A stretch of 64,000 nucleotides of DNA from Candidatus Taenariivivens baikalensis (GCA_009691445.1 SICL01000002.1:63-64062); one strand, 5' to 3'; shown: positions 34,327 through 52,362, numbered from the stretch's first letter. The notes: generated from the letters alone by a model not told the origin. Made by a program: numbers and translations.

Positions 34327-35111
34327 GACTTCGTTCCTGCCAAGATGACGAATTTCATGTCGATGTAGCAGTCTTTGTTTTCAATGACCATGTTGTAATC
34401 TCGCTTGCCCTGCTCATCGAGGTCGATATGCATCTGGAAAATTTCATTCTTAACTTTTGCCGGAAGCCCGCTACTATCAAGCCAATTCCGAATGCTGGAG
34501 TGACGAGCCCAATAAATCTTCTTCTGGATTTTTTTGAACCCCGCTTTTTTCATGAGGTTAGTCAGATCCTCTTCCATAAAAGTGATCCGGTCTTCCTTCA
34601 GTTTAAACATTTCGGTGTAGAAAGTTTTTACGTGTTTTGTGGGAGGGACGCCTTCAGAGAAAACCATAATCCCATCTTTTTTGAGAACGCGGTAGCATTC
34701 TTTCATTGCGGCCTGGGTATGATCGATGATGTGGTGGAAGACCATCCGGGCAGTGATTTTATTAAACGTCTGATCCTTAAATTTCAGATCGTGCGCGTAC
34801 ATGCGCATCCAGGAAATATTTTTAAAAGCCGGATTTTCCGCGCGCTTCAGCATTTCTTCCGAAATATCCACACCAACGACATTTTTAACAAAGGGCGAAA
34901 CGGTGTGGGCAATGATTCCCGTCCCTGTACCGATGTCGAGGGCGTGGTCACTCTCATGAAACTGCCCGATGTTCAGAAAAGTATGCAGATAATCACCCTT
35001 GCTGGCCCACTCAAGATTATTGTATTTCTTGGCGCGTGTTGCCCAAAATTCAATCTCATCATTCGGTTTGGTTTTGGATTTTGCTTGTACGGCCTTGGAT
35101 TTAATTTTCAA
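34323..35111 (-). CDS. Class I SAM-dependent methyltransferase
   Basis: 262 aa. Motif I LDIGTGTGIIA and the post-I acidic residue VDISEEM. ATGA-type overlap with the downstream gene. Confidence 0.8.
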   Translation of the reverse strand: MKIKSKAVQAKSKTKPNDEIEFWATRAKKYNNLEWASKGDYLHTFLNIGQFHESDHALDIGTGTGIIAHTVSPFVKNVVGVDISEEMLKRAENPAFKNISWMRMYAHDLKFKDQTFNKITARMVFHHIIDHTQAAMKECYRVLKKDGIMVFSEGVPPTKHVKTFYTEMFKLKEDRITFMEEDLTNLMKKAGFKKIQKKIYWARHSSIRNWLDSSGLPAKVKNEIFQMHIDLDEQGKRDYNMVIENKDCYIDMKFVILAGTKS

Positions 35112-36600
35112 GAAGTTCCTCCTGTGGTGGCGGCGGTTTAGGAATAAATTTATTTTTAAAGACCTTAAGCAAATCCAGTTCTTTATTGAGTTTGATCAAG
35201 AAGGGCGAATAGATAAGTAAGAAAATACCAAATTGAAGCAAAACTTTCCACAGGTTTTGTTCTGAACCCGGGATCAGACGGTCAAGAGCAAACAGGAGTC
35301 CGGTCAAAAGAACAAATTTGATAAAAAGAAGAGCAAAATGTCCGATCGTTTCCCGACGGTTGAAAATGTAGGATGAAGCAATCCAGTAAGTGGTGGCGAA
35401 TTCAACAAATTGGACGATTGTCGTCGCAATCGAGACTCCGATAATGCCGGTATGTCCTTTAATGGCCAGGTAATTGGAAACGAAAGCCAGGCCGCACGCG
35501 ACAAGCATAATCGGTACCATGAACGCTTGTTTGCGGATGACGGCCATAAAATAATTGAAAGGATTAATCAGGGCAAGAAAGTAAGAGCCCAGGATCAGTG
35601 CTTTCATCGGGGCAATGCTCTCTAAAAAATCAGGAAGAATGATGCGGGAAAAATACGGCGCAAAGAACCAGACGCCCGCAATTAAAAGAGGCATGAGATC
35701 GGAAAACGCGAGTGAGGACTTCATGAGATATCCCTTAAGGGCATCGGCTTTTTCAGTCTCTCCGTACCGTTCATGAAAATTGGGCATCAGCACAACCCCG
35801 ACGGCAGTGGGAATGGTTCCGATATAGGTATAAGCCAGAATCGCGAGACTGTAGATGCCCAGTTCGCGAAGTCCCAAGAATTTTGCGATCATGATTTTAT
35901 CAATGCTCAGGAATAAGGTCCCAAGAAACCCGGTGATCATAAGCGGGAATCCATAACAAACCATTCCCCAAAGAATTTTCCAGTTCAAATCAAAGCGGAA
36001 ATGAAAGGAATAGTAGCAGCGGATACAGATAATATTGAAAACAAAACTCAAGCACATCGCCAACATAAAACCATACATGCGAAATTTATAAGACAAGATC
36101 GCGACGAGGATGCCATTTACAATCGATGAGAGAACCATTTGTTTTCCTGCAAGGGTAAACAGCTTATAACCCCGCAAAAAAGCGATACTCAGATTACTGA
36201 TACGCTGCAGGATAACCAGGCCCCCGATAAACAATAATCCGTAAAACATGACTTCGGAAAGCCGGGACTGGTAGACAAGCGCATAAACCAGCGCGCCTAA
36301 ACTAATCAGGGCCGCCGTAAGCAGGGAGAAACTAAAAATAATATTCTTCATTTGGTCGGCGGTCTTGAGATCCCCTTTTCCCCGGTAGTACGGGACTTCT
36401 CGGGAGATGGATTCGGAGACGCCGAAGGTGGAATAAGAGGAATAATTCAGAATCACTTGAAGAAGAGACCAGGCGCCCATTTGAGTCGGTCCCAGAAAGC
36501 GGCGGGTCAAAAGGCCCGCGATAAGCGTGATTAGCTGGGTGACAATGGAAAGCGCCAAGTAAATGCTCGCATCTTTAATGATTTCGTTTTTCTTGGTCAT
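35101..36600 (-). CDS. wzx: Wzx-type oligosaccharide flippase (polysaccharide biosynthesis protein, MOP superfamily)
   Basis: 499 aa with about 12-14 TM helices. The N-terminal region is typical of PST-family flippases. Confidence 0.75.
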   Translation of the reverse strand: MTKKNEIIKDASIYLALSIVTQLITLIAGLLTRRFLGPTQMGAWSLLQVILNYSSYSTFGVSESISREVPYYRGKGDLKTADQMKNIIFSFSLLTAALISLGALVYALVYQSRLSEVMFYGLLFIGGLVILQRISNLSIAFLRGYKLFTLAGKQMVLSSIVNGILVAILSYKFRMYGFMLAMCLSFVFNIICIRCYYSFHFRFDLNWKILWGMVCYGFPLMITGFLGTLFLSIDKIMIAKFLGLRELGIYSLAILAYTYIGTIPTAVGVVLMPNFHERYGETEKADALKGYLMKSSLAFSDLMPLLIAGVWFFAPYFSRIILPDFLESIAPMKALILGSYFLALINPFNYFMAVIRKQAFMVPIMLVACGLAFVSNYLAIKGHTGIIGVSIATTIVQFVEFATTYWIASSYIFNRRETIGHFALLFIKFVLLTGLLFALDRLIPGSEQNLWKVLLQFGIFLLIYSPFLIKLNKELDLLKVFKNKFIPKPPPPQEELLEN

Positions 36601-38501
36601 ATGATTGAGGCGAGCTCGCGGGGTGTTATTTTTAGGGACTTTTGGATAAAATTCGCAACCCGACCTGCTTGATCCGTACCCGATTTTCCAAGAAAGAATT
36701 CTATTTCTTCAGAAGGCAGGTTTTTCCAGGGGATTGTGTCTTTTTCATAAGGTTTGAGGCGGTTCAAGGCCTGCTTGATTTCGTTTTCATTTCTTGCGAC
36801 CTGAATGAAGTTTCTCTTTTCAAAATCAGAGATCCTCTCCCGGTTTTTATCCGATAAATCCATAAAAATAACGGGAAGCTGGCAGAGAACAGCTTCAATG
36901 ATGGTGGTGGACCAGGAAGAAAGAATCATTGCATCACACTGATGGATCAGGGTGATAATTTCTGATTTTGGATCGCTGACCACCCTGATTTTATTTTCAA
37001 TCTCATATTCTTTAAATAAACGCTTCCATGTTCCAAGGCCCATTGTATTGTGGGGCTTAAAGATGACTTCAAGTTCCCCTTTGAATTCCCTCAGAATCTT
37101 GAAAAAACTACGGGCGGCGGGTTCAACAATTTGTTGAAAGCTATCATCATGAATGCCGAGGTATCCGTGATGATCCGGAGTTTGTGGCGTAATGTAGGTA
37201 TTAGCGCAATAGAGAAGCTTTATTTTTGAAGAAAAGGATTTTTTAAGACGTTTTTTAAATTCCCGGATTAATTCATCATAGCGCGGTGTTCCGGTTACAA
37301 CGATTCCCTTGGGATTCCATCCTCGGCGAACATAAAAATCTTTTTCATATTGGGATTGAACGAGCGTGGAGGATTGGTGAAAGACCTGGCAATCCGTCGG
37401 TACTGCGAAATTAACGGCGAGATTGGCGTGCGACAGGCAATAGACCGGGATTTTCTTTCGTTTGGCAAAGGCGCCCAGGAATCCTCCCCGGAGAGCGTAA
37501 TCATCTTCAGTGAGAATTGCCTTTACCTTTGTCGCTTGAAAAACTTTTTCATATTCTTCGTATCGTTTGCCCAGTTGTTTCAGAAATGGATAAAAAGACG
37601 GAAGGACTAAATCAAGAATGAAAGGACTGAGGTTATCCTCCTTATAATGAAAGAATCCTGCGTCCGATGCAGACCGAAGGCCTGCAGATAGTTCCTGAAA
37701 AGCGGCGGAAGAGTCGTATTCAGCCGGAGTAACACCGTGAGATCGATAAGAGTCCGAAGTCATATAAGGAATGCGATTTTTTTGCGACCAGGAAAAAAGA
37801 TTGGCATTAAACGCACTGTCGTAAATACCCGTCGAAATGCCTTGTGACGAAAGAACCTGGAGAAGACGGCCTAAATGACGCAAAGAACCAATCGCCAGAA
37901 TATCCACATGTTTTGGAGGATGGAAAAAAGAAGCGTGAATTTTTGAAATCTGATTTTTGAATTTGGCGGAAAGTTCCGGTGGCACCGGATGGCCTCCTGA
38001 TTCTCCGGAGTTTATTGAGCTGGAATCAAGTTCAACCATTGGGAGAGCGGACTCTTTTGCTTTTTGCTGAAGCAAATAGTTGAGATAACTATTGCCGGAA
38101 AAATCAGGGTAAGTTTTAAAAAAAGGTTTAAACGTAATGACCGCGGCTGGAGATGCGCATTTCAAAATTATTTCTGAAAATAATAAATTTTTGACCGCCT
38201 GGCACAGTAAGTGTGAAAAGAAAAGATAGACGGTAGAGGCAAGATCAATGGTTTTAAAAACCGATCGCTCCCGGCAAAACTCAATCCATTTCGCCGCACG
38301 GCCGCAGCCCCAGGCATTGATTTCAGCCCACTGAGATTTTAAGGCGAAGTCATCAACCTTCCGGAAATTAATTTTTTGATTTCCCAAATAAGAATATATC
38401 TGGGGATTGTCACAAAAAATAAGAATATCACTGAGGCAGGGATAAGCCTCAGCCAATTTTTTATGCTGAATTTCATTGGATAATACGGCAACAGCCTTCA
38501 T
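36597..38501 (-). CDS. Large GT-B-like transferase, possibly TagF/Glyphos_transf-like polyol-phosphate (CDP-glycerol/ribitol) transferase
   Basis: 634 aa. The C-terminal half has KIKLLYCANTY...HHG and CDAMILSSWSTTIIEA. I judge these similar to TagF LYAPTFRD and SDxLITDYSS blocks. Function not firmly assignable. Confidence 0.4.
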   Translation of the reverse strand: MKAVAVLSNEIQHKKLAEAYPCLSDILIFCDNPQIYSYLGNQKINFRKVDDFALKSQWAEINAWGCGRAAKWIEFCRERSVFKTIDLASTVYLFFSHLLCQAVKNLLFSEIILKCASPAAVITFKPFFKTYPDFSGNSYLNYLLQQKAKESALPMVELDSSSINSGESGGHPVPPELSAKFKNQISKIHASFFHPPKHVDILAIGSLRHLGRLLQVLSSQGISTGIYDSAFNANLFSWSQKNRIPYMTSDSYRSHGVTPAEYDSSAAFQELSAGLRSASDAGFFHYKEDNLSPFILDLVLPSFYPFLKQLGKRYEEYEKVFQATKVKAILTEDDYALRGGFLGAFAKRKKIPVYCLSHANLAVNFAVPTDCQVFHQSSTLVQSQYEKDFYVRRGWNPKGIVVTGTPRYDELIREFKKRLKKSFSSKIKLLYCANTYITPQTPDHHGYLGIHDDSFQQIVEPAARSFFKILREFKGELEVIFKPHNTMGLGTWKRLFKEYEIENKIRVVSDPKSEIITLIHQCDAMILSSWSTTIIEAVLCQLPVIFMDLSDKNRERISDFEKRNFIQVARNENEIKQALNRLKPYEKDTIPWKNLPSEEIEFFLGKSGTDQAGRVANFIQKSLKITPRELASII

Positions 38502-38520: not shown

Positions 38521-39297
38521 TCAGGCGGGATGGGTTAATTTTTCAAAATAAGTTTTAAAAAGGCGGTCCTGCGGCATTTGAGAGCGAATGAGTTCAAGAT
38601 CCTGCGGCGTATCCACGCTGACCGTGGCGTGCGGAATGTGAACGGCTTTAATTTTGTATCCCTTTTCTAAAATTCTCAGGTATTCATTGAACTCAATGGT
38701 TTCAAGCTTCCCTTTCGTCCACGCCGCGTATTGCAGCAAAAAAGATTTACGGAATGGAACCAGATGGCAGACCTTGAGTAAAGGCGGATTCGGTGTCCGT
38801 GCATCCGAAGGAATATCTGAACGGGAAAAATACATCACTTCATCTTTTTCATTCAATACGGTTTTGATGACAGAGGTGATTCCCCGCTCAGCAAAAGGAG
38901 TCACTAAAAGAGCGACCGAGAGATCAGGATTTTGATAGAGCGCCGTAACCGCGGCATCAATATGTTCGGGATCGAGAAGGGCTTCATCCCCTTGAACATT
39001 GACAATGATATCCGCTTCGATTCCAGCAGCTGCTTCCGCAATTCGATCGGTGCCGGTTTGATGCCGGCTGTTTGTCATGATGGCCTTGCCGCCAAACTTT
39101 TGAACGGTTTCGAGAATCTCAGCACTGTCCGTTGCCACATAGACATCATGGAGAGTTTTAGCCATTTGACTTCTTCGAAGCACATGAACAATCATGGGAA
39201 GGCCGCAAATATCCGCCAAAGGTTTTTTTGGAAGGCGCGATGATTCGAGCCGGGCCGGAATAATGGCAACCGTTCTGGGAGTGGCGTGATTACTCAT
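38521..39297 (-). CDS. kdsB: 3-deoxy-manno-octulosonate cytidylyltransferase-like (CMP-Kdo synthetase family)
   Basis: 258 aa. VAIIPARLESSRLPKKPLADICGLPMIVHVL, NVQGDEALL and SVDTPQDLE align closely with E. coli KdsB blocks. This is a better fit than NeuA. Confidence 0.8.
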   Translation of the reverse strand: MSNHATPRTVAIIPARLESSRLPKKPLADICGLPMIVHVLRRSQMAKTLHDVYVATDSAEILETVQKFGGKAIMTNSRHQTGTDRIAEAAAGIEADIIVNVQGDEALLDPEHIDAAVTALYQNPDLSVALLVTPFAERGITSVIKTVLNEKDEVMYFSRSDIPSDARTPNPPLLKVCHLVPFRKSFLLQYAAWTKGKLETIEFNEYLRILEKGYKIKAVHIPHATVSVDTPQDLELIRSQMPQDRLFKTYFEKLTHPA

Positions 39298-40070
39298 TGA
39301 AATTTTTTAAAAGCCTGGTGAACGGTGCTGTATTCCCGGTAAAGGAGATTGGCATCCACTCCGTACGTGATAAATTTCAACCCTAAATTCAGAAGTTTTT
39401 TAATATCGTTTTGAGAATGGGCCACAAATCCTCCGGCGCATTTTCCCACAGCAGACACCTTCGCAATTCCCTGTTTTAAAGGTTTCATGACATCGGCGTG
39501 ATAGATGTCGCCCGGATGACCAAAAACGGCGGAGAGGTCATAGGCGCCGAAGTAAACGATATCTAAGTCTTCGATTTCGAGAATCTCGTCCAGGTTTTCA
39601 AATCCTTCTTTTGACTCAATAATAATGGAGCGGACAATATTTTGATTCGAATGCTTTACATAGTCGCCTGCATTTGTGCCGTTAAAAGAGCCTGCTTTGG
39701 TAAAGGGTGTGAATCCCCGCGTGCCTTTCGGAGAAAATTGGGTAGTGCGAATAAACTCCTTCACATCATTTGCATTCTGCATGTGAGGAACCATCAATCC
39801 TTCAGCCCCTTGATCGAGGGCTTGTTGAATCATCCAGGGCTCAGGGACCGGGAGGCGGACAATCGGTGCGCAGCCGTAGGCCTGACAGTGGCTGACATAG
39901 TCCGAAATCCGGTGAAGTTCAAAGGGGCCGTGTTCGAAGTCAATGATGACGAAATCAAGACCGGATTGCGCAATCGCATCAGTCACAAGCGAAGCGCCTA
40001 AGGTATTCCAGGTCCCCAGGATAGGATTTTTTTTCTGAATTTTATTTTTAAGCGTGAAGGGCATGTTCAT
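39294..40070 (-). CDS. HpcH/HpaI-family class II (metal-dependent) 2-keto-3-deoxy-acid aldolase
   Basis: 258 aa. ILGTWNTLGASLVTDAIAQSGLDFVIIDFEHGP is the family signature. Confidence 0.75.
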   Translation of the reverse strand: MNMPFTLKNKIQKKNPILGTWNTLGASLVTDAIAQSGLDFVIIDFEHGPFELHRISDYVSHCQAYGCAPIVRLPVPEPWMIQQALDQGAEGLMVPHMQNANDVKEFIRTTQFSPKGTRGFTPFTKAGSFNGTNAGDYVKHSNQNIVRSIIIESKEGFENLDEILEIEDLDIVYFGAYDLSAVFGHPGDIYHADVMKPLKQGIAKVSAVGKCAGGFVAHSQNDIKKLLNLGLKFITYGVDANLLYREYSTVHQAFKKFQ

Positions 40071-40836
40071 TTTCTACCTTGAGCTGGTTAAAGGATTCAA
40101 TGATGTGACAAGGCAGGTCTTTAAAATCCTCTCGGGTTCCGAGTCCGGTCAAGACACCGATATTACAGATGAGCCCCGCGTTTTCCCCCATCAGAATATC
40201 CACCGGATGATCCCCGATGACGGCCGTCTTTTCCCGGCGTGCCTTTGTTTTTACAAGAAGCCTTTCTACGGCTTCAGGTTCGGGTTTTGAATTCTGAATC
40301 TGATCGCCTCCCAGGACAGAGTGAAAATAGGGAGAAAGGCCAAACTGATTCAGAGTTTCCTGGGCGCGATTAGTCCGATCGCTTGTCGCAATGGAAAGCA
40401 GGATTCCGGCATCGTGAGCTTTCCTGACAAAATTTTCCACGCCCGGAAGTAATCGAACGAAATCACGGATGTGAGAAAGCGTTTTCTCATCCACTTCACG
40501 AAAAAGAGTTTCGATCTCCTGGACTGATGCCGCGGCGCCCATCTCCTTGAGTGTCTGAATGACGACTTGAACGATAAAACTCCGCGGTTTAATCCCGACC
40601 GGCCCTTCCCTTTTCATTTTGCCTGTGGATTCATCAATTCCCATGGCTTCAATCAAACGGGTGGAACGTTGTGAATCCGAGGTGTCCTTAAAGTATTTCT
40701 GAACAAGCAACTCGGTTCGCATGCGGATCATCGCGGTCCAGTAAAAATGGACATCAATGAGGGTTCCGTCTTTATCAAAAATAATAAGTTCCGGATCCTC
40801 CAGAAGAGTCTGGCCGGTGTCAAGCTTTAACGCTTT
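40048..40836 (-). CDS. HAD-superfamily hydrolase (phosphatase, HAD-IA-like)
   Basis: The start MKALKLDT... is chosen at 40836 to avoid overlap. Motif I IIFDKDGTLID and a C-terminal GDHPVDI motif. Confidence 0.75.
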   Translation of the reverse strand, partial: KALKLDTGQTLLEDPELIIFDKDGTLIDVHFYWTAMIRMRTELLVQKYFKDTSDSQRSTRLIEAMGIDESTGKMKREGPVGIKPRSFIVQVVIQTLKEMGAAASVQEIETLFREVDEKTLSHIRDFVRLLPGVENFVRKAHDAGILLSIATSDRTNRAQETLNQFGLSPYFHSVLGGDQIQNSKPEPEAVERLLVKTKARREKTAVIGDHPVDILMGENAGLICNIGVLTGLGTREDFKDLPCHIIESFNQLKVENEHALHA

Positions 40837-41833
40837 CATAAAATCCTTCGTGCACCAGTTCTTTTCCGATTTCCACGGCAGAGCGTATATTTTCGGCATT
40901 CGTATCAAAATCCGGTTTAATAAGGAATTCATTCACAATCTTCCGTGCATGAGTTCCTACAGAAATTCCGTTATAACGAACCCCGCACATCCGGGCAAGC
41001 TTAGAGGTTTGATTATTGGTTCCTCCGGAAACGAGGATTTTAAGGCTCTTGAAATTTTTCCGGATAATATCCGTCGTCGCAATGGCCTGAAGCGTGGTAT
41101 TAAAATCGTCTTTTCCCCCGCTCATTGGAACCCCGTCGGCCTGAATAATGGTTCTGTCTTTGGCAATGGATAAGGCTTCCTTGATACGCTGCGTCAGGCT
41201 GTGTGTGGATAAGTAAGCTCGGTCGAGGCACATCGAGATGAAGTTATTCGGTTGAATCTCATTCACCGTTTTCCATTCCTCAATAATTTGGTCATTGGAC
41301 GGGACGGCGGCATGAAGTTCAATATTTTCCGCGCCGGCTTCAAGGCATTCGGGAAGAATTTTTTTGAGCGACTTATCATCATGTTCGTAACGGATGGCAT
41401 CAATTTTTTTCGGACAGGCTTCTTCACAAGCGCCGCATCCGATACAAAGATCCCGGATGATCACCAGATTGAGCGGAATCGCATCCGTCGGGCAAACCGG
41501 AATACATTTATCGCATTTAATGCAGGTATCAATGATGTAAGCTTTGCGGACATGATGATCGCCCGGCATCCCGACGCTGACGGTGATAAAAGGCCGGTTA
41601 GGGATTTCAATATTCAGTTTTTTGGACCATTCGTACGCGGTATTGATTCCCGAAACACAGGATTGAACAATATGCGGCTTGGCAGAAACATCAAAACCGT
41701 TGGCACCGGCAAGCGTATAAACAACCGCAAGCTTGCGGACTTCCTCGGCGTTTTCGTTCCCCGCTCCGCAGACCAGTTTAAAATAACGGTTTTCATCCAA
41801 AAGCTTTCTCATTTCCTCGAAACGCGCATTCAT
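40820..41833 (-). CDS. 4Fe-4S dicluster-domain protein of unknown function
   Basis: 337 aa. Central CIKCDKCIPVCP and CIGCGACEEACP ferredoxin motifs, flanked by an N-domain (KLVCGAGNE) and a C-domain (KILVSGGTNN) that look like split halves of a barrel. Confidence 0.5.
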   Translation of the reverse strand: MNARFEEMRKLLDENRYFKLVCGAGNENAEEVRKLAVVYTLAGANGFDVSAKPHIVQSCVSGINTAYEWSKKLNIEIPNRPFITVSVGMPGDHHVRKAYIIDTCIKCDKCIPVCPTDAIPLNLVIIRDLCIGCGACEEACPKKIDAIRYEHDDKSLKKILPECLEAGAENIELHAAVPSNDQIIEEWKTVNEIQPNNFISMCLDRAYLSTHSLTQRIKEALSIAKDRTIIQADGVPMSGGKDDFNTTLQAIATTDIIRKNFKSLKILVSGGTNNQTSKLARMCGVRYNGISVGTHARKIVNEFLIKPDFDTNAENIRSAVEIGKELVHEGFYESVKA

Positions 41834-41834
41834 T

Positions 41835-43481
41835 TCATTTCTCCTTCAGTTTTTGAGAATTATTTTTAGAAAATTCCGGGGAATAAATGGAACTTTGAGT
41901 GACCGAGTAAGTGGTCGGAGTGACGCTGATGATCGATGGGGCCAGCGGAATTTTTTTATAAAGATTTAAAATATGTTCCATCTCTTTGTGGCGAGGGTCC
42001 TGGTAATCATAGCCATCAAATCCGGCCAAAAGAATCCGGGATGCTCCGCTGCTGATCCCAAGTGCAAACACGTAAGCGGCAACCAGCATGAGAGGGATCA
42101 CGCAGTCATTTTCCTCGGCTAGAAAAGTATTTTCACTCGTTCCCATTCCATAATCAAAAACTTTCAAATTTTTAAATTTATGTTTTACAATTTCAGGCAC
42201 GGCGTTCATGGGTGCGATGATCGGACGGTTTAATGATTGGTATTTATCGGAATCCATGAGTAATCGGGTTTTGTGGCAGGTGGCATAAGCCGTAATATGT
42301 TCAGGAGCAATATACGGATTAATGTTCAGAGAAACCACTACCGGGTCATTTTCTTTGATCAAGCGGACAACATCCTCTTTATATCTTTCCAGCTGCGGCC
42401 CTGATCCCAGAATAAGTAAGTCACGGTTTTGAGCCCATCCGGATGCGGACCACGAACCTTTCAGAGGCTGATGAAGATTATTCAGGGCTTTTTCCAGATC
42501 CTTATCTTTAAAAGAAGTGGCGCCGCTGTTTTTTAAAGATTCCAATGCCGCAAGAATCTTTTCCGGCTGGTAATCAGGTTTTGAAAGAATCTCCTGAATG
42601 TAAGTCGGGTGGATTCCGTATTTGCCGGAAAGATAATAAAGCAGATTATTTCCCCAGCCGTAGCGTTTTTTCATTTTTTCAAAATCGTCGATCACCAGGG
42701 AGAAAAGGGCGTCGGGATAAAAGGTTTGAATGCCCCGGCTCGTGAGTTCCAGGATAAGAAGTTCGGTGCAGGCATTCCCCGCTCCGCGTCCCATGCCAAG
42801 GATGGTGCCGTCAATCCACGCAGCCCCTGTTTCGATGGCCGTTAAAGAGTTCTCAAGTGCGTTGCCCATATTATCGTGAGTGTGAATCCCCACCGGTCCG
42901 TCCCAATTTTTTTGAATGGTCTGGATGATTTCCCGTGTTTGTTTGGGATCAAGACTTCCCAAACTGTCCGCAATATAAAAGACATCAATCATGTTTTGAT
43001 TTTTTATCCATCCGGAATATTCGCGGAGCTGATGAGGGGGGATATGCGAAATATGCATTAAATTTAAACCGATCGCATAACCCAATTTTTTTAAAGCGCT
43101 CATCAAAGCGGCACATTCTGTCAGCTGATTCGGATTGACGGCAATTCGCACAAGTTCGACGCGGGAATTTACCGCGGGCTGGAATACAAGATCAACCGCT
43201 TGTTCAATCCCCCCGGGGTATTGAAGAAATTCTTTGGCATTGATCATGACCCCAAGCTTCAGGTCTTCCGGGACATCGAGAGTGGAAATAAAATAATCCG
43301 TCGTGTAGGCAAATGGCCCCAGGAAACCTTCCTGAGGAAGTGAACGAAAACCCAATTCAACCGTCCGAATACCCGCGGTATGAACGGCCTGAAGGTAGCG
43401 GGACACAAGATCCGCAGGAAAATCCCACTGATTGTAGTAGCCGCCGTCGCGGAGCGTGCAATCAAGAATTCTTAAATCCAT
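41835..43481 (-). CDS. Fusion protein: N-terminal DRE-TIM metallolyase (HMGL-like aldolase/synthase) domain plus C-terminal MptE/DUF115-like domain
   Basis: N-terminal LDCTLRDGGYYNQWDF...TVELGFR is the DRE-TIM signature. The C-terminal ~230 aa (LILGSGPQLE...ILLAGFDGY) resembles Maf/DUF115 (MptE-like) domains. Start either MDL at 43481 or MIQ at 43526. Confidence 0.55.
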   Translation of the reverse strand: MDLRILDCTLRDGGYYNQWDFPADLVSRYLQAVHTAGIRTVELGFRSLPQEGFLGPFAYTTDYFISTLDVPEDLKLGVMINAKEFLQYPGGIEQAVDLVFQPAVNSRVELVRIAVNPNQLTECAALMSALKKLGYAIGLNLMHISHIPPHQLREYSGWIKNQNMIDVFYIADSLGSLDPKQTREIIQTIQKNWDGPVGIHTHDNMGNALENSLTAIETGAAWIDGTILGMGRGAGNACTELLILELTSRGIQTFYPDALFSLVIDDFEKMKKRYGWGNNLLYYLSGKYGIHPTYIQEILSKPDYQPEKILAALESLKNSGATSFKDKDLEKALNNLHQPLKGSWSASGWAQNRDLLILGSGPQLERYKEDVVRLIKENDPVVVSLNINPYIAPEHITAYATCHKTRLLMDSDKYQSLNRPIIAPMNAVPEIVKHKFKNLKVFDYGMGTSENTFLAEENDCVIPLMLVAAYVFALGISSGASRILLAGFDGYDYQDPRHKEMEHILNLYKKIPLAPSIISVTPTTYSVTQSSIYSPEFSKNNSQKLKEK

Positions 43482-43482
43482 T

Positions 43483-44532
43483 TCAGATTTCACGCGAACC
43501 TCTGCTAATCTTTGCGTTTGGATCACTGGTTAAGTAGTTATTTTCATAATCTTCTGCCATTTGTTCCAGAATTTTACGGTAAAAATCCGAAACTTGGTAT
43601 TCCTGATATCGGTTATCAACGATTTTGCGCTGTTGTACCCAGTAAGTTGACGGAAGGATTCGCGGGATATTCATGTTTTTGAACATCGTGGCTGTTCGGG
43701 ATGTTTCACAGATTCCTAATTTTTTTTGTACAGTTGTCCAGTCATCGTTTGGGGTTACGACAAATCTTTCAAAAGGGATGATCATCACCTTGTTTTGGAA
43801 TGAGGGCCGTTGAGTATAAAATTCCTTAGCTTGATGAAGAAGATGATGCGTCACAAGAATTGCTTGTTCAAAGGGATTGGCCGCTAAATAATCATCGGCA
43901 ATTTCAAGGGCAAACCAAGGTATTATTTTATCTTTTACTAATAAAACCTGCTGAAATTCTCTAGGATCATTACCGAGGCGTTTATTCCAGTTGCCTTTAG
44001 TCCAGTTTTCCACAAGCCAAAATGGATGTCTGATCGGTACAACCATGAGTTTAAGACGATGATGGAAGGTGTCAAACATAAGCTCAGAGATTCCGAAAAG
44101 ATAATGGGTCATCAGCACTAAAATGGGTTTTTCTAATTTTATTTTATCAACAATAGCTTCTCCTTCTGTTTTGTCTTCGAGCCTCAAACGATATTTTTCC
44201 TCCTGAAGATTTGCTTGTATGCTGCTTAGGTCAGAAGCTCTAAGGTTAATGTGTCTTCCTATCATAAGGTGGTAAAGATCCATATCAGCATAGGTTTTGA
44301 GGAATGTCGCTGCCACAGATCGATTCATGAATCCGTAATGGTCCGCCATGCACAAGTAGTCATAATTATAATTTGCGATCCATGCCTCACATCGATCCAA
44401 GCTGCTGATAAGTGGTGCTAGCAGGGATTTTCCGGAGCCTGAAAATCCATCAATAACAACAATATCCTCGGCAAGTTGCAGAGGGCGAATCAAGACTGCT
44501 TCACTTAGGGGATTTGAAATCTTGGGACTCAT
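43483..44532 (-). CDS. P-loop NTPase-fold protein (Walker A GFSGSGKS; kinase- or sulfotransferase-like)
   Basis: 349 aa. VVIDGFSGSGKSLLAPL Walker A resembles APS-kinase/zeta-type kinases. No further family assignment possible. Confidence 0.4.
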   Translation of the reverse strand: MSPKISNPLSEAVLIRPLQLAEDIVVIDGFSGSGKSLLAPLISSLDRCEAWIANYNYDYLCMADHYGFMNRSVAATFLKTYADMDLYHLMIGRHINLRASDLSSIQANLQEEKYRLRLEDKTEGEAIVDKIKLEKPILVLMTHYLFGISELMFDTFHHRLKLMVVPIRHPFWLVENWTKGNWNKRLGNDPREFQQVLLVKDKIIPWFALEIADDYLAANPFEQAILVTHHLLHQAKEFYTQRPSFQNKVMIIPFERFVVTPNDDWTTVQKKLGICETSRTATMFKNMNIPRILPSTYWVQQRKIVDNRYQEYQVSDFYRKILEQMAEDYENNYLTSDPNAKISRGSREI

Positions 44533-44533: not shown

Positions 44534-45352
44534 TTAACTTTTTTGTAGTGTTGACAGATTTTTTGATGGATTCAATTTAAATTTTTCCCATTGAGCCAAG
44601 TCAAATCCTGATTCGATCAAGGATTGGCGGGATTTTTCCAGACCGTCTCCGATAAAGTTAAATAGATGGGCCGTGGCCACGGCATCGACTCGTGGATCTT
44701 TTAACCCCTGGGCAAGGTGATGATAGTTACCGGCACCGCCCGCAAGGATCACCGGAATGGTTAGAGTCTCCGGGATTTGATCCAATAAGCCTAAGTCGTA
44801 ACCCTGTCCTGTTCCATCCCGATGAATCGAATTCAAATAAAGTTCGCCAATAGGATAGTTTGATATTTTTTGGAGCCAGGTACTCAGGGAATCATTGACC
44901 GGCTTACTTCCATTTTCGACCATGATTCGGTATCCGGACTCATGGAGGGAAGCATCAACGGAGGCAATAATGCATTGCTGTCCAAATTCTACAGCCAGTT
45001 GGTTGAGAAGGATGGGGTTTTCAAAGATCGGAGTGTTGATAACGATCTTATCTGCGCCAGACCGGAGAAGTTGTTTAGCTTGCTCAACGGAGCGGATTCC
45101 TCCCCCTGCGGCTATCGGCATAAAGCAACCCTCCGTGAGCGACTTGAGATGTTCACAAAAAAGATCAAATTGGCGAGCGTCTCGTGAAACATCAAGGACG
45201 ATCAATTCATCGATCGAAAATGCCACTCGATAAAAGTTATAATTCTTTTGCAGCCACCGTAGATCACCCACGCGCTGCAGACGAAAATTACGGCTTAACA
45301 TGAATGAGCCGTGATCAAATAAGAGTGTAAAAATAACACGTTTTTTAAGCAT
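44534..45352 (-). CDS. HisF-like cyclase subunit of a glycan-modifying imidazole-glycerol-phosphate-synthase-like complex (WbuY/PseudoHisF type)
   Basis: The start MLKKRVIFTLLFDHG is chosen at 45352. IAAGGGIRSVEQAKQLLRSGADKIVINT is a HisF-type (beta/alpha)8 phosphate-binding motif. It sits next to a HisH-like gene and a WbpG-like amidotransferase. Confidence 0.8.
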   Translation of the reverse strand: MLKKRVIFTLLFDHGSFMLSRNFRLQRVGDLRWLQKNYNFYRVAFSIDELIVLDVSRDARQFDLFCEHLKSLTEGCFMPIAAGGGIRSVEQAKQLLRSGADKIVINTPIFENPILLNQLAVEFGQQCIIASVDASLHESGYRIMVENGSKPVNDSLSTWLQKISNYPIGELYLNSIHRDGTGQGYDLGLLDQIPETLTIPVILAGGAGNYHHLAQGLKDPRVDAVATAHLFNFIGDGLEKSRQSLIESGFDLAQWEKFKLNPSKNLSTLQKS

Positions 45353-45354
45353 GG

Positions 45355-45981
45355 TTAAATCTCTAGAAAATTTCCTAATAAAATCAAACCGTTCGTTTGG
45401 CTTTTTTCCGGATGAAATTGAGTGCCGCATATATTGTTCACCTCAAATGCAGCGAGGAACTCAGTGCCATAGTTGCAAGTCCCCCAATTCCCTTTCAGTT
45501 CTGCGCCAAGCATGCGATAGGAGTGAACAAAGTAAAAATCAGCGGCAGGAGGCAATGAGCGAAATAATCCTGAGCATTTGGCAAAATGAACCGTATTGAA
45601 TCCCACATGAGGGATTTTATTTCGGTTGAGTTCTTGCGGTGAAAATTTATCAACGGCATTCGAAATCAATCCAAGGCCTTTCGTCTTACCATCTTCTGAA
45701 CCGGAAGCACCCAAAAGCTGCATGCCTAGACAGATTCCTAATATTTTTGCACCGCGAACTTTAACAGCCTCTAAAATCGCCTGTTCAAGACGCGTGCGTC
45801 TCAAGGTTTCCATTGCTTTTCTAAAGGAGCCTACGCCCGGTAAAATTAAGAAATTCGCCTCGCGAACTTGATCAGGATCGCTGCTTAAGAGGGATTGTCT
45901 TCCCAAGTAGCGGACCGCACTCTGAACTGACCAAAGATTGCCCATTCCATAATCGATCGTAACAATCTTTTTTTGTGACAT
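45355..45981 (-). CDS. HisH-like class I glutamine amidotransferase subunit
   Basis: 208 aa. IVTIDYGMGNLWSVQSA...ILPGVGSF plus the catalytic Cys region GICLGMQLL. Confidence 0.85.
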   Translation of the reverse strand: MSQKKIVTIDYGMGNLWSVQSAVRYLGRQSLLSSDPDQVREANFLILPGVGSFRKAMETLRRTRLEQAILEAVKVRGAKILGICLGMQLLGASGSEDGKTKGLGLISNAVDKFSPQELNRNKIPHVGFNTVHFAKCSGLFRSLPPAADFYFVHSYRMLGAELKGNWGTCNYGTEFLAAFEVNNICGTQFHPEKSQTNGLILLGNFLEI

Positions 45982-51292: not shown

Positions 51293-52362
51293 AAAGTCAC
51301 CAAGTCGTCTTTGCAAAAGTTTTTGAGAGAAGGACGTCCCAGGAGTTCCCAATATTTATAGGGACTGAGACCCAAGCCGGGTCTTTTGATCGCAAGATTA
51401 GATGATGAAAACAAATCCCCTTTTTTAATCGAGGAGGATGCCACAATGCTTTTTCGGATGGCCGATATGTTTTTAGTTTCACACAAAGAGGGTTTTTTTT
51501 GACCGTCGCCTAGGGCGTATTCAACAGCGCGTATTCCATCGATCATTTGTTTGAGTTCATTAGGTTCAAGAGAAGCAAAGTGATCCGGTCCGGAAAGTCT
51601 TCGATCCAGTGTAAAGTGTTTCTCAATAATGGTTGTTCCCAGAGCGGCTGCGGCGATGGGCACTGCACCTCCCAAGGAATGATCGGACAGTCCGGTGGAA
51701 AGGCTAAAGATTTTTTGCAAAGTCATCATGGCACGTAAATTAATGGCGTGATAAGGAGCTGGATACTCCGTGGTGCATTGAAGCAAAGTCACTTTTTCTT
51801 TCAGAAGCCCCTTTCCTTCCCGAGAATCGTAATAAGATTTAAACTTTCGTTCTGATGGGTCTTCCTTGGCTGAAGAAAGAAATCCAAAGGCTAGCACCGA
51901 GAGTGCTTTTTTAATTTCCTGAAGGGTTGACATTCCCGTTGATAAAATAATAGGCAACTTTTTTCGGGCGACGTGAAGTAAGAACGGAGCGTTTGTAATT
52001 TCTCCTGATGAGATTTTAAAACGCTTAACCCCAAGTTCATATAAAAAGTCTGCACTGGCCTCATCAAAAGGCGTTGAGAGAAATTCGATTTTTTGCTTTG
52101 TGCATTCCCGGAATAAAGCTTGATGACTTCGATCCGTTAACTCCAGGCGCTTAATCATATTCCATTGCGATGAACCCCTAGTCTGTTTCATTTGGTACGA
52201 TGCTTTGGGGGTTGTTTTGGTCAGAAGCGTCTCAGCTCGGAAAGTTTGAAACTTGACCGCGTCTGCGCCCGATGATTTTGCGCAACGCACCATTTCAAGG
52301 GCTCTTTCCACATTCCCATTATGATTGACGCCGGCCTCGGCAATAACATATACGTGTTTCAT
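51289..52362 (-). CDS. Nonulosonic acid synthase (NeuB/LegI/PseI family) with C-terminal SAF domain
   Basis: 357 aa. Starts MKHVYVIAEAGVNHNGNVERALEMV, has the SGADAVKFQTF motif, and ends in an antifreeze-like domain. Confidence 0.9.
   Translation of the reverse strand: MKHVYVIAEAGVNHNGNVERALEMVRCAKSSGADAVKFQTFRAETLLTKTTPKASYQMKQTRGSSQWNMIKRLELTDRSHQALFRECTKQKIEFLSTPFDEASADFLYELGVKRFKISSGEITNAPFLLHVARKKLPIILSTGMSTLQEIKKALSVLAFGFLSSAKEDPSERKFKSYYDSREGKGLLKEKVTLLQCTTEYPAPYHAINLRAMMTLQKIFSLSTGLSDHSLGGAVPIAAAALGTTIIEKHFTLDRRLSGPDHFASLEPNELKQMIDGIRAVEYALGDGQKKPSLCETKNISAIRKSIVASSSIKKGDLFSSSNLAIKRPGLGLSPYKYWELLGRPSLKNFCKDDLVTL

What the first reader, a model, noticed from the sequence alone, without database searches (positions are those of the whole stretch)
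41835..43526. Unusual fusion of a DRE-TIM (HMGL-like, LDCTLRDGGY) aldolase/synthase domain to a DUF115/MptE-like (Maf-type) domain
DUF115/MptE-like domains occur in Maf/PseD/PseE proteins, the proposed CMP-nonulosonate transferases of flagellin glycosylation. DRE-TIM domains catalyse aldol or Claisen condensations on 2-oxo acids. This domain pairing is unusual to my knowledge. It would couple a C-C bond-forming or -cleaving step to a putative CMP-sugar transfer, or represent a bifunctional tailoring enzyme for the nonulosonate made by the downstream leg-like genes.
Basis: inference. Interest (0 to 1): 0.62.

Follow-up and report, generated by a model that had tools for sequence, protein, structure and literature searches.

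The report
Common aldolase fusion, KdsB-linked sugar cassette
This gene encodes a widespread but unstudied enzyme, a pyruvate-type aldolase joined to a nucleotide-binding domain; it nearly always sits next to a CMP-sugar-activating enzyme and a phosphatase, which points to an undescribed route to an acidic surface sugar, not to a rare tailoring enzyme for the neighbouring legionaminic-acid genes.

Summary
The ORF is real (minus strand, 41835-43526; the true start is probably the ATG at 43481, giving 548 aa). Residues 16-355 are a DmpG-like DRE-TIM aldolase barrel plus helical domain, with Pfam HMGL-like E=5e-29. Residues 356-550 form an extra alpha/beta domain. It falls below the Pfam MptE-like threshold (15.7 bits against 34.6). 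Family-wide weak hits, profile-profile alignment and Foldseek (MptE 8sd5, SteA) place it in the MptE/TPK/CstII phosphonucleotide-binding fold class. No evidence makes it specifically Maf-type. The fusion is not unusual: at least 593 species genomes carry it, and the C-domain forms 1,264 clusters at 50% identity. It is not tied to the leg genes, since NeuB is nearby in only 12 of 82 loci. Its conserved partners are a KdsB-type cytidylyltransferase (72/82) and a HAD phosphatase (59/82). Natural fusions to each partner exist. Best reading: it is the pyruvate-dependent synthase of an uncharacterised CMP-3-deoxy-2-ulosonic-acid cassette, and the C-domain binds a cytidine nucleotide. Whether that domain is a regulator, a transferase or a kinase is unresolved. 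No literature on the family was found; the only structure is an unpublished structural-genomics entry (3DXI) of the N-terminal part.

The parts
41835..43481 (-). Target gene, aldolase plus MptE-like-fold fusion. It is 548 aa from the ATG at 43481. The listed ORF extends to a GTG at 43526 (563 aa).
   Evidence: ORF list. Start-codon context: TGA, one base, then ATG. 100% identical to P0001, 'aldolase [Candidatus Omnitrophica bacterium]'.
42717..43481 (-). DRE-TIM (HMGL-like) metallolyase barrel, aa 16-270. R26-D27 motif and metal ligands H215/H217. Tyr30 occupies the position of the DmpG catalytic His.
   Evidence: Pfam PF00682 E=5e-29. NCBIfam best match is DmpG-type aldolase, below cut-off. 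Residues conserved in all aligned sequences. Foldseek: 3dxi TM 0.92, DmpG 1nvm TM 0.78.
42462..42716 (-). Helical post-barrel domain, aa 271-355, equivalent to the DmpG communication domain.
   Evidence: AF2 secondary structure: helices 272-349. Covered by the 3DXI alignment to aa 334 and by the ~350-column DmpG superpositions.
41877..42461 (-). C-terminal alpha/beta phosphonucleotide-binding-type domain, aa 356-550 (MptE/TPK/CstII/SteA fold class). Near-invariant residues: G376, N401, P478, Y485, G502, D504, T536.
40820..41833 (-). LdpA-like 2x[4Fe-4S] protein (Fer4, LdpA_C, weak DUF561). Fused to the target in P0092 and P0117. Part of the extended, window-type cassette.
   Evidence: Pfam. 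NCBIfam LdpA 135 bits, below cut-off. Fusions. Same position in L083, L003, L004, L007, L011, L019.
40048..40932 (-). HAD-IA phosphatase (phosphoglycolate phosphatase/PpaX-like). The real start is probably downstream of the listed one.
   Evidence: Pfam HAD_2/Hydrolase E=1e-25. NCBIfam. A HAD is present in 59/82 loci. HAD fused to the C-domain in P0131.
39294..40070 (-). HpcH/HpaI class II pyruvate aldolase, a second aldolase found only in the extended cassette.
   Evidence: Pfam PF03328 E=2e-31. NCBIfam HpaI/GarL-like, below cut-offs. Cluster c16 in 7 loci.
38521..39297 (-). KdsB-type cytidylyltransferase, the conserved partner of the target.
   Evidence: Pfam CTP_transf_3 E=7e-47. NCBIfam PRK13368 255.7 bits (cut-off 255) and TIGR00466 kdsB 161.2 (cut-off 155.2). 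Present in 72/82 loci and in 69/75 loci with at least 3 kb downstream. Fused to the target in P0133.
36597..38501 (-). 634-aa GT-B-like protein (weak Glycos_transf_1 and TIGR04396 hits). Candidate transferase for the cassette product.
   Evidence: Proteins of similar size (~600 aa) with no Pfam domain follow KdsB in 16/82 loci; tblastn with the window protein did not link them to it. A 636-aa protein lies two genes after KdsB in L083.
35101..36600 (-). Wzx-type flippase, indicating a lipid-linked surface glycan as the destination.
   Evidence: Pfam Polysacc_synt.

Best explanation
The protein is the committed-step synthase of a small, mobile and widespread biosynthetic cassette: aldolase fusion, KdsB-type cytidylyltransferase and HAD phosphatase. 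The cassette makes its own CMP-activated 3-deoxy-2-ulosonic acid for a surface glycan, independently of the legionaminic-acid genes upstream.

Proposed mechanism. The N-terminal DmpG-like class II (divalent-metal) aldolase forms the enolate of pyruvate on the D27/H215/H217 metal site and adds it to a sugar aldehyde that is probably phosphorylated. It therefore does with pyruvate what KdsA or NeuB do with PEP. The HAD removes the phosphate, and the KdsB-like enzyme couples the free ulosonic acid to CMP. These two irreversible steps pull the reversible aldol reaction forward.

The C-terminal domain is a phosphonucleotide-binding module of the MptE/TPK/CstII/SteA fold. I think it most likely binds a cytidine nucleotide (the CMP-sugar end product, or CTP) and regulates or couples the synthase. 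This would parallel the C-terminal regulatory domains of other DRE-TIM enzymes and the non-catalytic nucleotide sensor SteA.

In this window and its close relatives the cassette is extended by an LdpA-like Fe-S protein and a second (HpcH) pyruvate aldolase, implying a more elaborate product. A ~630-aa GT-B-like protein and Wzx then pass that product on.

Shown: domain folds, catalytic-residue conservation, gene neighbourhood statistics, fusions. Inferred: substrates, reaction direction, existence of a phosphorylated intermediate, role of the C-domain.
For: Aldolase identity: Pfam HMGL-like E=5e-29. Nearest curated and solved relatives are DmpG-type pyruvate aldolases, not Claisen synthases. 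Metal and enolate residues are conserved in every aligned sequence.

Cassette: de novo ORF clustering of 82 loci from many phyla gives a KdsB-like gene in 72/82 (69 of the 75 loci with at least 3 kb downstream; it starts within 1.6 kb downstream on the same strand in 46), a HAD in 59/82, and NeuB in only 12/82. The partner passes NCBIfam KdsB cut-offs, and PGAP independently names the trio on a Leisingera plasmid.

Rosetta-stone fusions: aldolase + C-domain + KdsB (P0133, P0137, P0208), C-domain + HAD (P0131), and aldolase + C-domain + Fer4/LdpA (P0092, P0117).

The cassette occurs in Gram-positive bacteria (Bacillus, Rossellomorea, Microthrix, Ilumatobacteraceae), which are not expected to make LPS Kdo (the taxonomic point is established knowledge).

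Established knowledge: every known CTP_transf_3 substrate (Kdo, Neu5Ac, Kdn, Pse, Leg) is formally pyruvate plus an aldose, and the Kdo, Kdn and animal sialic-acid routes use the same synthase-phosphatase-cytidylyltransferase logic.

C-domain: fold evidence. The pocket of this fold binds AMP in TPK and CMP in CstII, and SteA binds GDP/UDP non-catalytically (PMC12977500). Near-invariant residues lie at the C-terminal ends of the strands. Three C-domain-less relatives checked all lack a neighbouring cytidylyltransferase.

Surroundings are polysaccharide genes: glycosyltransferases, ABC or Wzx exporters, rml and gmd genes.
Against: No biochemical data exist for any family member. The aldehyde substrate, the product and the reaction direction are all inferred.

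The protein fails the curated DmpG cut-offs (93 bits against 286), and Tyr replaces the DmpG catalytic His, so the chemistry could differ. For example it could be a decarboxylative aldol from oxaloacetate, since oxaloacetate decarboxylase and transcarboxylase 5S are also structural neighbours.

The HAD is type IA, not the KdsC/NANP type IIIA.

A regulatory role for the C-domain rests only on analogy. The conserved polar residues would equally suit catalysis. TM-scores to MptE and SteA are only about 0.5.

Ten of the 82 loci show no KdsB-like gene nearby, some because the contig ends.
Confidence: 0.45

Rival explanations
1. Same pathway, but the C-terminal domain is the CMP-ulosonate glycosyltransferase (a minimal CstII/Maf-like GT). 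The three-gene cassette would then be a self-contained module that makes, activates and attaches one acidic sugar.
For: The fold class includes CstII and Maf (PMC12977500; PF01973 membership of stand-alone neighbours). The strand-end motifs resemble CstII: GxGP matches GNGPS, invariant N401 matches N31, and GFDGY matches GIDFY156 (the CstII sequence was recalled from memory). More than 50 loci show only the minimal trio, with no recognisable ulosonate transferase in the clustered neighbours.
Against: No CstII or Maf structure is in the top 50 Foldseek hits, and hhalign to CstII gives 22%. No conserved His equivalent to the CstII base H188 follows the GxDxY motif; the consensus there is DPRQxEM. 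The domain is only about 195 aa, with no lid or acceptor domain. Stand-alone DUF115 proteins (9 loci) or ~600-aa GT-like proteins (16 loci, including a protein of that size in this window) coexist with an intact C-domain.
Confidence: 0.2
2. Same pathway, but the C-terminal domain is an ATP-dependent kinase or pyrophosphokinase like MptE and TPK. It phosphorylates the sugar substrate or traps the aldol product, and the HAD later removes the phosphate. This would mirror the animal route: ManNAc kinase, then NANS, NANP and CMAS.
For: The closest solved enzyme by sequence profile and by Foldseek is the pyrophosphokinase MptE 8sd5. A HAD phosphatase is a core partner, which implies a phosphorylated intermediate.
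Against: The Asp in the 'ADG' motif at the end of MptE strand beta-2 is an invariant Asn here. Only one acidic residue (D504) is near-invariant, which is few for a two-Mg ATP site. A phosphorylated central metabolite such as an aldose phosphate would explain the HAD without any kinase. The window has a separate Walker-A protein just upstream.
Confidence: 0.15
3. One reading: a rare bifunctional tailoring enzyme, or Maf-type CMP-nonulosonate transferase, acting on the legionaminic-acid-like sugar made by the adjacent leg genes, in flagellin glycosylation.
For: The gene lies in the same long minus-strand operon as a complete Leg-type pathway. NeuB is nearby in 12/82 loci. The C-domain belongs to the superfamily that includes Maf.
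Against: The architecture is abundant, not rare. 70 of 82 loci have no NeuB within 7 kb, whereas a KdsB-type activator is near-constant. The Leg pathway has its own PseF/LegF-like CMP synthetase. No flagellar or Maf genes were found in the window region scanned (15.4-59.8 kb), which has a Wzx and glycosyltransferase context. There is no structural match to Maf.
Confidence: 0.05
4. The aldolase adds pyruvate to a nucleotide-linked keto or aldehydo sugar, while the C-domain holds the nucleotide handle. The product would be a branched or chain-extended 'higher-carbon' sugar acid.
For: 4,6-dehydratases, which produce NDP-4-keto sugars, are frequent neighbours (30/82). Unexplained CMP-linked C10 alpha-keto acids are reported in Magnetospirillum (preprint 10.64898/2026.04.20.719630), a genus that carries the cassette (L012, L022). 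AF2 gives a confident fixed arrangement of the two domains (pTM 0.81).
Against: It does not explain why a KdsB-type enzyme and a HAD are the core partners and are sometimes fused to the protein. The dehydratases can be explained as ordinary rml, Leg or Pse genes of the surrounding glycan loci. The preprint makes no gene link.
Confidence: 0.08
5. An ordinary catabolic 4-hydroxy-2-oxovalerate aldolase (DmpG/BphI type) of aromatic or steroid degradation, as many automatic annotations state.
For: Some sources name homologues '4-hydroxy 2-oxovalerate aldolase'. The best curated family hits are DmpG-type.
Against: Scores are far below the equivalog cut-offs: 93 against 286 and 104 against 229. No acylating aldehyde dehydrogenase partner or meta-cleavage gene is nearby. 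The catalytic His is replaced by an invariant Tyr. There is an extra C-terminal domain, and the context is always glycan biosynthesis.
Confidence: 0.02

Closest known systems
DmpG/BphI/HsaF 4-hydroxy-2-oxovalerate aldolases (PDB 1nvm, 4jn6, 4lrs; TIGR03217)
   Same: DRE-TIM barrel plus helical post-barrel domain (Foldseek TM about 0.78-0.80 over ~350 columns). Same Arg-Asp and His-x-His metal and enolate site. Presumably also stabilises a pyruvate enolate.
   Different: About 20% identity and far below curated cut-offs. Tyr30 replaces the catalytic His. No dehydrogenase partner. An extra 195-aa C-terminal domain. Biosynthetic glycan context instead of aromatic catabolism.
PDB 3DXI, 'N-terminal domain of a putative aldolase (BVU_2661) from Bacteroides vulgatus' (structural genomics)
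   Same: A true family member: phmmer E=2e-54, shared ILDCTLRDGGYY motif, Foldseek TM 0.92.
   Different: Only the barrel and helical part was crystallised. No function, C-domain structure or publication was found.
MptE (archaeal 6-hydroxymethyl-7,8-dihydropterin pyrophosphokinase, PDB 8sd5; Pfam PF01973)
   Same: Best PDB sequence-profile hit and second-best fold hit for the C-domain. Shares the GxGPS-type loop after strand 1.
   Different: Pfam score is below the cut-off. TM is only about 0.5. The Asp of MptE's 'ADG' is an invariant Asn here. There is no pterin context.
SteA C-terminal domain (PDB 9hmz, 9hmy), a TPK-like GDP/UDP-binding sensor
   Same: Top Foldseek hit (E=2e-4). It sets a precedent for a non-catalytic phosphonucleotide-binding use of this fold (PMC12977500).
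   Different: SteA is a membrane-anchored cell-division regulator of Mycobacteriales. About 12% identity, and unrelated context.
CstII (GT42) sialyltransferase and Maf flagellin glycosyltransferases
   Same: Same fold class according to the literature. Similar strand-end motifs, including the Asn after strand 2 and GxDxY. They use CMP-activated ulosonic acids, which is what the partner KdsB-like enzyme would produce.
   Different: Not retrieved by Foldseek in the top 50. hhalign gives 22%. No equivalent of the catalytic His188, no lid or acceptor domains, no flagellar context.
Kdo (KdsA-KdsC-KdsB), Kdn and animal sialic-acid (NANS-NANP-CMAS) pathways
   Same: Synthase, phosphatase and cytidylyltransferase logic. 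The partner cytidylyltransferase passes KdsB family cut-offs.
   Different: The synthase here is a metal-dependent pyruvate aldolase of the DRE-TIM superfamily instead of a PEP-dependent KdsA or NeuB enzyme. The HAD is type IA, not IIIA. The product is unknown.
LeuA/CimA-type DRE-TIM enzymes with C-terminal allosteric domains
   Same: A DRE-TIM catalytic barrel followed by helical linker domains and a C-terminal ligand-binding domain that gives end-product feedback (established knowledge).
   Different: Their regulatory domain has a different fold (LeuA_dimer) and binds amino acids. The analogy concerns architecture only.

Membership tests
DRE-TIM metallolyase / Pfam HMGL-like (PF00682) | Score above the Pfam gathering threshold | tested here: met
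   101.8 bits against a cut-off of 29, E=5.3e-29.
DRE-TIM metallolyase / Pfam HMGL-like (PF00682) | Arg-Asp motif and Asp/His/His divalent-metal ligands | tested here: met
   R26, D27, H215 and H217 are conserved in every sequence covering them, 69-74 of a 74-row alignment, and align to the DmpG and 3DXI motifs.
DmpG-type 4-hydroxy-2-oxovalerate aldolase (TIGR03217 / PRK08195) | Score above the curated equivalog or subfamily cut-off | tested here: not met
   93.4 bits against 286, and 104.1 against 229.
DmpG-type 4-hydroxy-2-oxovalerate aldolase (TIGR03217 / PRK08195) | Catalytic His four residues after the Arg (RDGxH) | tested here: not met
   The motif is RDGGYY; Y30 is invariant.
DmpG-type 4-hydroxy-2-oxovalerate aldolase (TIGR03217 / PRK08195) | Adjacent acylating aldehyde dehydrogenase (DmpF) partner | tested here: not met
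   No such gene among the window neighbours or in the recurrent clusters of 82 loci.
DmpG-type 4-hydroxy-2-oxovalerate aldolase (TIGR03217 / PRK08195) | Barrel plus helical communication-domain fold | tested here: met
   Foldseek 1nvm, 4jn6 and 4lrs give target-normalised TM 0.77-0.80 over about 350 columns.
Pfam MptE-like / DUF115 (PF01973) | Score above the gathering threshold (34.6 bits) | tested here: not met
   15.7 bits for the whole protein and 18.6 bits for the isolated domain. 19 of 30 members hit weakly, best E=0.0017.
Pfam MptE-like / DUF115 (PF01973) | Homology to bona fide members by profile-profile comparison | tested here: inconclusive
   hhalign gives 90.7% (E=1e-6) to cluster c27, which passes PF01973 at 41.5 bits, but over only 39 columns. 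It gives 95.6% over 181 columns to the L015 protein, which is itself sub-threshold.
Pfam MptE-like / DUF115 (PF01973) | Fold similarity to the solved MptE structure | tested here: met
   Foldseek 8sd5_A: probability 1.00, E=6.6e-3, TM 0.49/0.51. This is moderate similarity.
MptE pyrophosphokinase (function) | Acidic residue at the end of strand 2 ('ADG') and several Mg-binding carboxylates | tested here: not met
   That position is N401 in 74/74 sequences. Only D504 is a near-invariant acidic residue.
Maf (motility accessory factor) flagellin glycosyltransferases | Flagellin or flagellar gene context | tested here: not met
   None among the ORFs scanned between 15.4 and 59.8 kb of the window. 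The recurrent neighbours in 82 loci are polysaccharide genes.
Maf (motility accessory factor) flagellin glycosyltransferases | Structural similarity of the domain to the Maf central domain | tested here: not met
GT42 (CstII-type) sialyltransferases | Detectable homology and a catalytic His base after the GxDxY motif | tested here: inconclusive
   hhalign gives 22%, E=9e-4, over 42 columns, using a CstII sequence recalled from memory. No conserved His is present in the corresponding region.
Kdo-type CMP-ulosonate pathway (synthase / phosphatase / KdsB) | KdsB-family cytidylyltransferase encoded with the synthase | tested here: met
   PRK13368: 255.7 and 280.5 bits against a cut-off of 255. TIGR00466: 161.2 against 155.2. 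Present in 72/82 loci. PGAP gives the same name. Fusion protein P0133.
Kdo-type CMP-ulosonate pathway (synthase / phosphatase / KdsB) | PEP-dependent KdsA/NeuB-type synthase | tested here: not met
   The cassette has no such gene. NeuB is nearby in only 12/82 loci. The DRE-TIM aldolase occupies the synthase position.
Kdo-type CMP-ulosonate pathway (synthase / phosphatase / KdsB) | The product is a 3-deoxy-2-ulosonic acid that becomes CMP-activated | not testable with these tools
   Needs enzyme assays or LC-MS of the nucleotide-sugar pool.

The most novel reading that the evidence does not exclude
The family is the synthase of a previously unrecognised, PEP-independent route to a new CMP-activated 3-deoxy-2-ulosonic acid, or a family of them diversified by radical-SAM enzymes, carbamoyltransferase, or Fe-S plus HpcH add-ons. 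The route is carried by hundreds of bacterial species, including SAR11, Prochlorococcus, Marinobacter, Pseudomonas, Bacteroides and Gram-positives. A CstII/MptE-fold domain fused to the synthase would act as a built-in CMP-sugar sensor or transferase. This could account for some unexplained CMP-linked alpha-keto acids, such as those reported in Magnetospirillum.
Probability: 0.35. Interest if true: 0.8.

Novelty: new variant of a known kind. Interest (0 to 1): 0.6.

Why it matters
All known bacterial ulosonic acids (Kdo, sialic, pseudaminic and legionaminic acids) are made by PEP-dependent KdsA or NeuB synthases. They are major determinants of surface charge, phage recognition and immune evasion. 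If this reading is right, there is a second, aldolase-based entry into CMP-ulosonic acids that current annotation cannot see, because the family is labelled only 'aldolase' or mislabelled '4-hydroxy-2-oxovalerate aldolase'. That would give glycobiologists a concrete three-gene target to express and assay. It would add an unannotated domain to the MptE/CstII fold class. It would also improve O-antigen and capsule locus interpretation in marine, soil and gut bacteria. For this window specifically, the operon would encode two separate CMP-acid-sugar pathways, a Leg-type one and a KdsB-linked one, not one pathway with a tailoring step.

Tried and rejected
(1) I recalled that the P. aeruginosa b-type flagellin island PA1088-PA1091 might be this cassette. 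Rejected: it is the CDP-(N,N-dimethyl)threonine system and has no aldolase (PMC11833859).

(2) Literature searches for the domain pair, for aldolase plus cytidylyltransferase, and for MptE/DUF115, BVU_2661 and 3DXI found nothing relevant.

(4) Single-sequence PDB searches with the stand-alone DUF115 neighbours c27 and c39 gave only noise.

(5) hhalign of the C-domain profile against CstII and c39 was too weak to place the domain in a branch of the superfamily.

(6) A Cys-ligated metal site in the C-domain (C417, H418, C475) was considered and dropped, because the cysteines are replaced by Ser or Ala in many members.

(7) The short hits inspected in the representative search (P0121, P0123) start inside the helical domain, so I rejected them as N-terminally truncated metagenomic fragments, not stand-alone domains; other short hits were not inspected.

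(8) The context look-up for P0054 failed because the protein is not on record.

(9) A link to the Magnetospirillum C10 CMP-keto acids is only a co-occurrence of genus. It is not evidence.

Full report
**1. The observation**

The window holds a 563-codon ORF at 41835-43526 on the minus strand, containing 'ILDCTLRDGGYY'. The upstream gene ends with TGA, followed by one base and then ATG-GAT-TTA (MDLRILDCT) at 43481. Residues 1-13 of the AlphaFold model have pLDDT below 50. Homologues are about 537-545 aa, and the 3DXI alignment begins at M16. The real product is therefore most likely 548 aa. The sequence is 100% identical to a protein annotated only as 'aldolase' from a Candidatus Omnitrophica MAG.

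**2. Domain anatomy**

Pfam gives HMGL-like at E=5.3e-29. NCBIfam's best hits are the DmpG-type 4-hydroxy-2-oxovalerate aldolases, but far below their cut-offs (104 against 229, and 93 against 286).

The nearest solved structure is 3DXI, 'N-terminal domain of a putative aldolase (BVU_2661) from Bacteroides vulgatus' (phmmer E=2e-54; Foldseek TM 0.92). It is a family member whose C-terminal part was removed. DmpG, HsaF and related aldolases come next, at TM about 0.78-0.80 over roughly 350 columns. Residues 16-270 are thus the DRE-TIM barrel, and residues 271-355 are the DmpG-like helical domain.

R26, D27, H215 and H217 are conserved in every aligned genomic homologue. The DmpG catalytic His position is an invariant Tyr, giving RDGGYY.

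Residues 356-550 are an additional alpha/beta domain, modelled at pLDDT 92 on its own. Pfam MptE-like is sub-threshold: 15.7 to 18.6 bits against 34.6. The superfamily assignment still holds on the following evidence:

- 19 of 30 members give the same nearly full-length weak hit, and no other family recurs.
- The best PDB sequence hit of the domain profile is MptE 8sd5.
- Foldseek gives SteA (E=2e-4) and MptE (E=6.6e-3, TM about 0.5) at probability 1.00, followed by noise.
- The domain HMM detects stand-alone proteins in related loci. One group of these (c27) passes the PF01973 threshold.
- hhalign probabilities are 90.7% to c27, over only 39 aligned columns, and 95.6% to the stand-alone L015 protein over 181 columns.

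No Maf or CstII structure appears in the top 50 fold hits. hhalign to CstII and to the GNGPSL-type neighbours (c39) gives only 22-23%. So 'MptE/DUF115-fold' is supported and 'Maf-type' is not.

The SteA paper describes this fold's pocket as the phosphonucleotide site shared by thiamine pyrophosphokinase (AMP) and CstII (CMP). It shows that SteA binds GDP/UDP without known catalysis (PMC12977500).

**3. Rarity**

The fusion is common.

- The word-indexed search returned 6,935 hits. The top 120 are nearly all 533-587 aa and cover 94-98% of the query.
They include Marinobacter, Pseudomonas, Shewanella, Halomonas, Idiomarina, Magnetospirillum, Methylobacillus, SAR11, Prochlorococcus, Cronbergia, Bacillus/Rossellomorea, Microthrix, Elusimicrobia and Omnitrophota.
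- An exhaustive HMM search with the C-domain alone found 1,264 clusters at 50% identity, 762 of them at E<=1e-10. The listed full-length members almost all carry the domain at about residues 330-540 of ~540-aa proteins.

The pairing looks rare only because databases record PF00682 alone for these proteins.

**4. Context in the window**

The gene lies in one long minus-strand operon.

Upstream genes:

- A complete Leg-type nonulosonate pathway: dehydratase, DegT aminotransferase, hydrolysing 2-epimerase, NeuB, PglD-like acetyltransferase, PtmE-like nucleotidyltransferase, and a PseF/LegF-like CMP synthetase.
- A deacetylase and a formyltransferase.
- A WbuX/HisH/HisF acetamidino module.

Downstream genes, in order:

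- An LdpA-like Fe-S protein.
- A HAD-IA phosphatase.
- An HpcH/HpaI aldolase.
- A second cytidylyltransferase that passes the NCBIfam KdsB cut-offs (255.7 against 255; 161.2 against 155.2).
- A 634-aa GT-B-like protein.
- Wzx, a methyltransferase, a CDP-alcohol transferase, MBOAT and an AlgX-like protein.

The ORFs scanned further along the window encode glycosyltransferases, ArnT/PMT-like proteins and NDP-sugar enzymes, and no flagellar genes. The closest homologue's contig (58% identity) has the same order from the WbuX/HisF/HisH module through to the methyltransferase.

**5. Context across genomes**

I clustered all ORFs within 7 kb of the target in 82 loci, without prior labels.

| Neighbour | Loci (of 82) |
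|---|---|
| KdsB-like cytidylyltransferase | 72 (69 of the 75 loci with at least 3 kb downstream; starts within 1.6 kb downstream on the same strand in 46) |
| HAD phosphatase | 59 |
| NeuB | 12 |

- The representative partner scores 280.5 bits on the KdsB subfamily model.
- PGAP annotates the trio on a Leisingera plasmid as aldolase catalytic domain-containing protein, 3-deoxy-manno-octulosonate cytidylyltransferase and HAD family hydrolase, within a polysaccharide locus.
- The window's extended form (target, Fe-S protein, HAD, HpcH, KdsB, ~600-aa protein) recurs in Omnitrophota, Elusimicrobia, Nitrosomonadales and Microthrix.
- Other lineages attach a B12-radical SAM, a SPASM radical SAM plus an SDR, or a carbamoyltransferase.
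- Natural fusions join the target to each partner: aldolase + C-domain + KdsB (P0133, 781 aa; P0137 and P0208 are truncated copies), C-domain + HAD (P0131), and aldolase + C-domain + Fer4/LdpA (P0092, P0117).
- Three relatives that lack the C-domain have no cytidylyltransferase nearby. These are on Mesorhizobium, Paraburkholderia and Priestia plasmids.

**6. Mechanism**

Two points of established knowledge frame the inference. All known CTP_transf_3 substrates are 3-deoxy-2-ulosonic acids, which are formally pyruvate plus an aldose. The Kdo, Kdn and animal sialic-acid routes all run synthase, then phosphatase, then cytidylyltransferase.

A DmpG-like enzyme stabilises a pyruvate enolate and adds it to aldehydes. 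The best-supported reading is therefore that this protein is the synthase of a KdsB-linked pathway to a CMP-activated ulosonic acid. It would use pyruvate, or possibly oxaloacetate with decarboxylation, in place of PEP. The HAD and cytidylyltransferase steps would pull the reversible aldol reaction forward. I put about 0.65 on this pathway-level statement.

The role of the C-domain is less certain. Its near-invariant residues (G376, N401, P478, Y485, G502, D504, T536) lie at the C-terminal ends of strands, which is the ligand site of such folds.

- Against a pyrophosphokinase: the Asp of MptE's 'ADG' is an invariant Asn here, and only one acidic residue is near-invariant.
- Against a sole transferase: there is no equivalent of the CstII catalytic His, the domain is small, and an intact C-domain coexists with stand-alone DUF115 proteins or ~600-aa GT-like proteins in up to 25 of 82 loci (9 and 16 loci respectively).
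- For a nucleotide-binding regulatory or coupling role: the top structural neighbour is the non-catalytic sensor SteA, the C-domain tracks with the KdsB context, and DRE-TIM enzymes typically carry C-terminal regulatory domains.

My ranking is sensor or coupling role about 0.4, transferase about 0.25, kinase about 0.2, other about 0.15. All of this is inference.

**7. Comparison with known systems and novelty**

The protein works like a DmpG-type aldolase but is not a member of that equivalog. It fails the cut-offs, lacks the catalytic His, has no DmpF partner and sits in the wrong context. The C-domain resembles MptE, SteA and CstII in fold, but it fails the Pfam threshold and lacks the MptE acidic motif. 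The cassette resembles the Kdo pathway but has neither KdsA nor a KdsC-type HAD.

I found no publication on the family. The only structure is the truncated structural-genomics entry 3DXI.

I classify this as a new variant of a known kind: CMP-ulosonic acid biosynthesis with a different synthase and an unannotated fused domain. What lies underneath is nevertheless more interesting than an ordinary aldolase.

**8. Caveats**

- Neighbourhood statistics come from the 80 loci most similar to the query, plus two metagenome loci.
- TM-scores for the C-domain are moderate.
- The CstII sequence used was recalled from memory. Its numbering reproduces the published active-site residues, but it was not checked against a database.
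- No substrate or product has been identified.

Noticed in passing
window 52359-53923 (-): A PIG-L deacetylase and a formyltransferase sit between the LegG-like epimerase and NeuB. A 2026 preprint (10.64898/2026.04.20.719630) links the same layout in Ca. Kuenenia to CMP-nonulosonates carrying one free and one formylated amine. This Leg pathway may make a similar derivative.
   Followed up: partly
window 57618-59756 (-); also L012, L006, L059, L068, L080: A B12-binding radical SAM enzyme heads the operon. A B12-radical SAM (cluster c18) also sits directly after the target gene in Magnetospirillum and SAR11 loci, which hints at C-methylation of the sugar acid.
   Followed up: partly
window 43483-44532 (-): A 349-aa protein with no Pfam or NCBIfam hit carries a Walker-A-like GFSGSGKS motif immediately upstream of the target. 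A ~340-aa protein without Pfam hits occupies the same position in the closest relative (L083); among the 82 genomic loci a homologue was found in only one. It may be a P-loop kinase or a sulfotransferase-like enzyme.
   Followed up: partly
window 44534-47126 (-): WbuX (357 bits) plus HisH-like and HisF-like genes form an N-acetyl-sugar amidotransferase (acetamidino) module between the Leg genes and the target.
   Followed up: partly
P0133, P0137, P0208, P0131, P0092, P0117 (metagenomic proteins): Natural multi-domain fusions occur: aldolase + C-domain + KdsB-like cytidylyltransferase (781 aa), C-domain + HAD, and aldolase + C-domain + Fer4/LdpA-like Fe-S protein.
   Followed up: yes
L054 13013-13870, L052 14423-15301, L042 13162-13974 (c27); L045 983-1912, L055, L056, L057 (c39); L015 20374-21141: Stand-alone DUF115/MptE-like proteins of about 255-300 aa flank the cassette in about 10 loci. 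The c39 group has CstII-like GNGPSL, VNHF and GADLSFH motifs. These are likely transferases for the cassette product.
   Followed up: partly
window 36597-38501 (-); clusters SP600/c29 in 16 of 82 loci: Proteins of about 600-640 aa with no Pfam domain above threshold (the window protein has weak TIGR04396 and GT-B hits) typically follow the KdsB-like gene. tblastn did not link the window protein to these clusters, so they are grouped by size and position only. They may be an uncharacterised ulosonate transferase family.
   Followed up: no
L085 (Mesorhizobium plasmid), L086 (Paraburkholderia plasmid): Relatives of about 330 aa that lack the C-domain sit in a different conserved set: SDR, a large HAD-IA hydrolase and an aminotransferase, with ATP-grasp genes in L085 only. 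This suggests another uncharacterised pathway built on the same aldolase.
   Followed up: partly
window 39294-40070 (-) and 40820-41833 (-): The extended cassette holds a second class II pyruvate aldolase (HpcH/HpaI) and an LdpA-like 2x[4Fe-4S] protein. Why two pyruvate aldolases and a redox protein are needed is unexplained.
   Followed up: partly
L075 (SAR11 single-cell genome): Two paralogues of the target flank a NeuB gene in one locus.
   Followed up: no
window 40048-40932 (-): As listed, the HAD ORF overlaps the Fe-S gene by 113 nt, and its HAD domain starts only at aa 49. The true start is probably further downstream.
   Followed up: no
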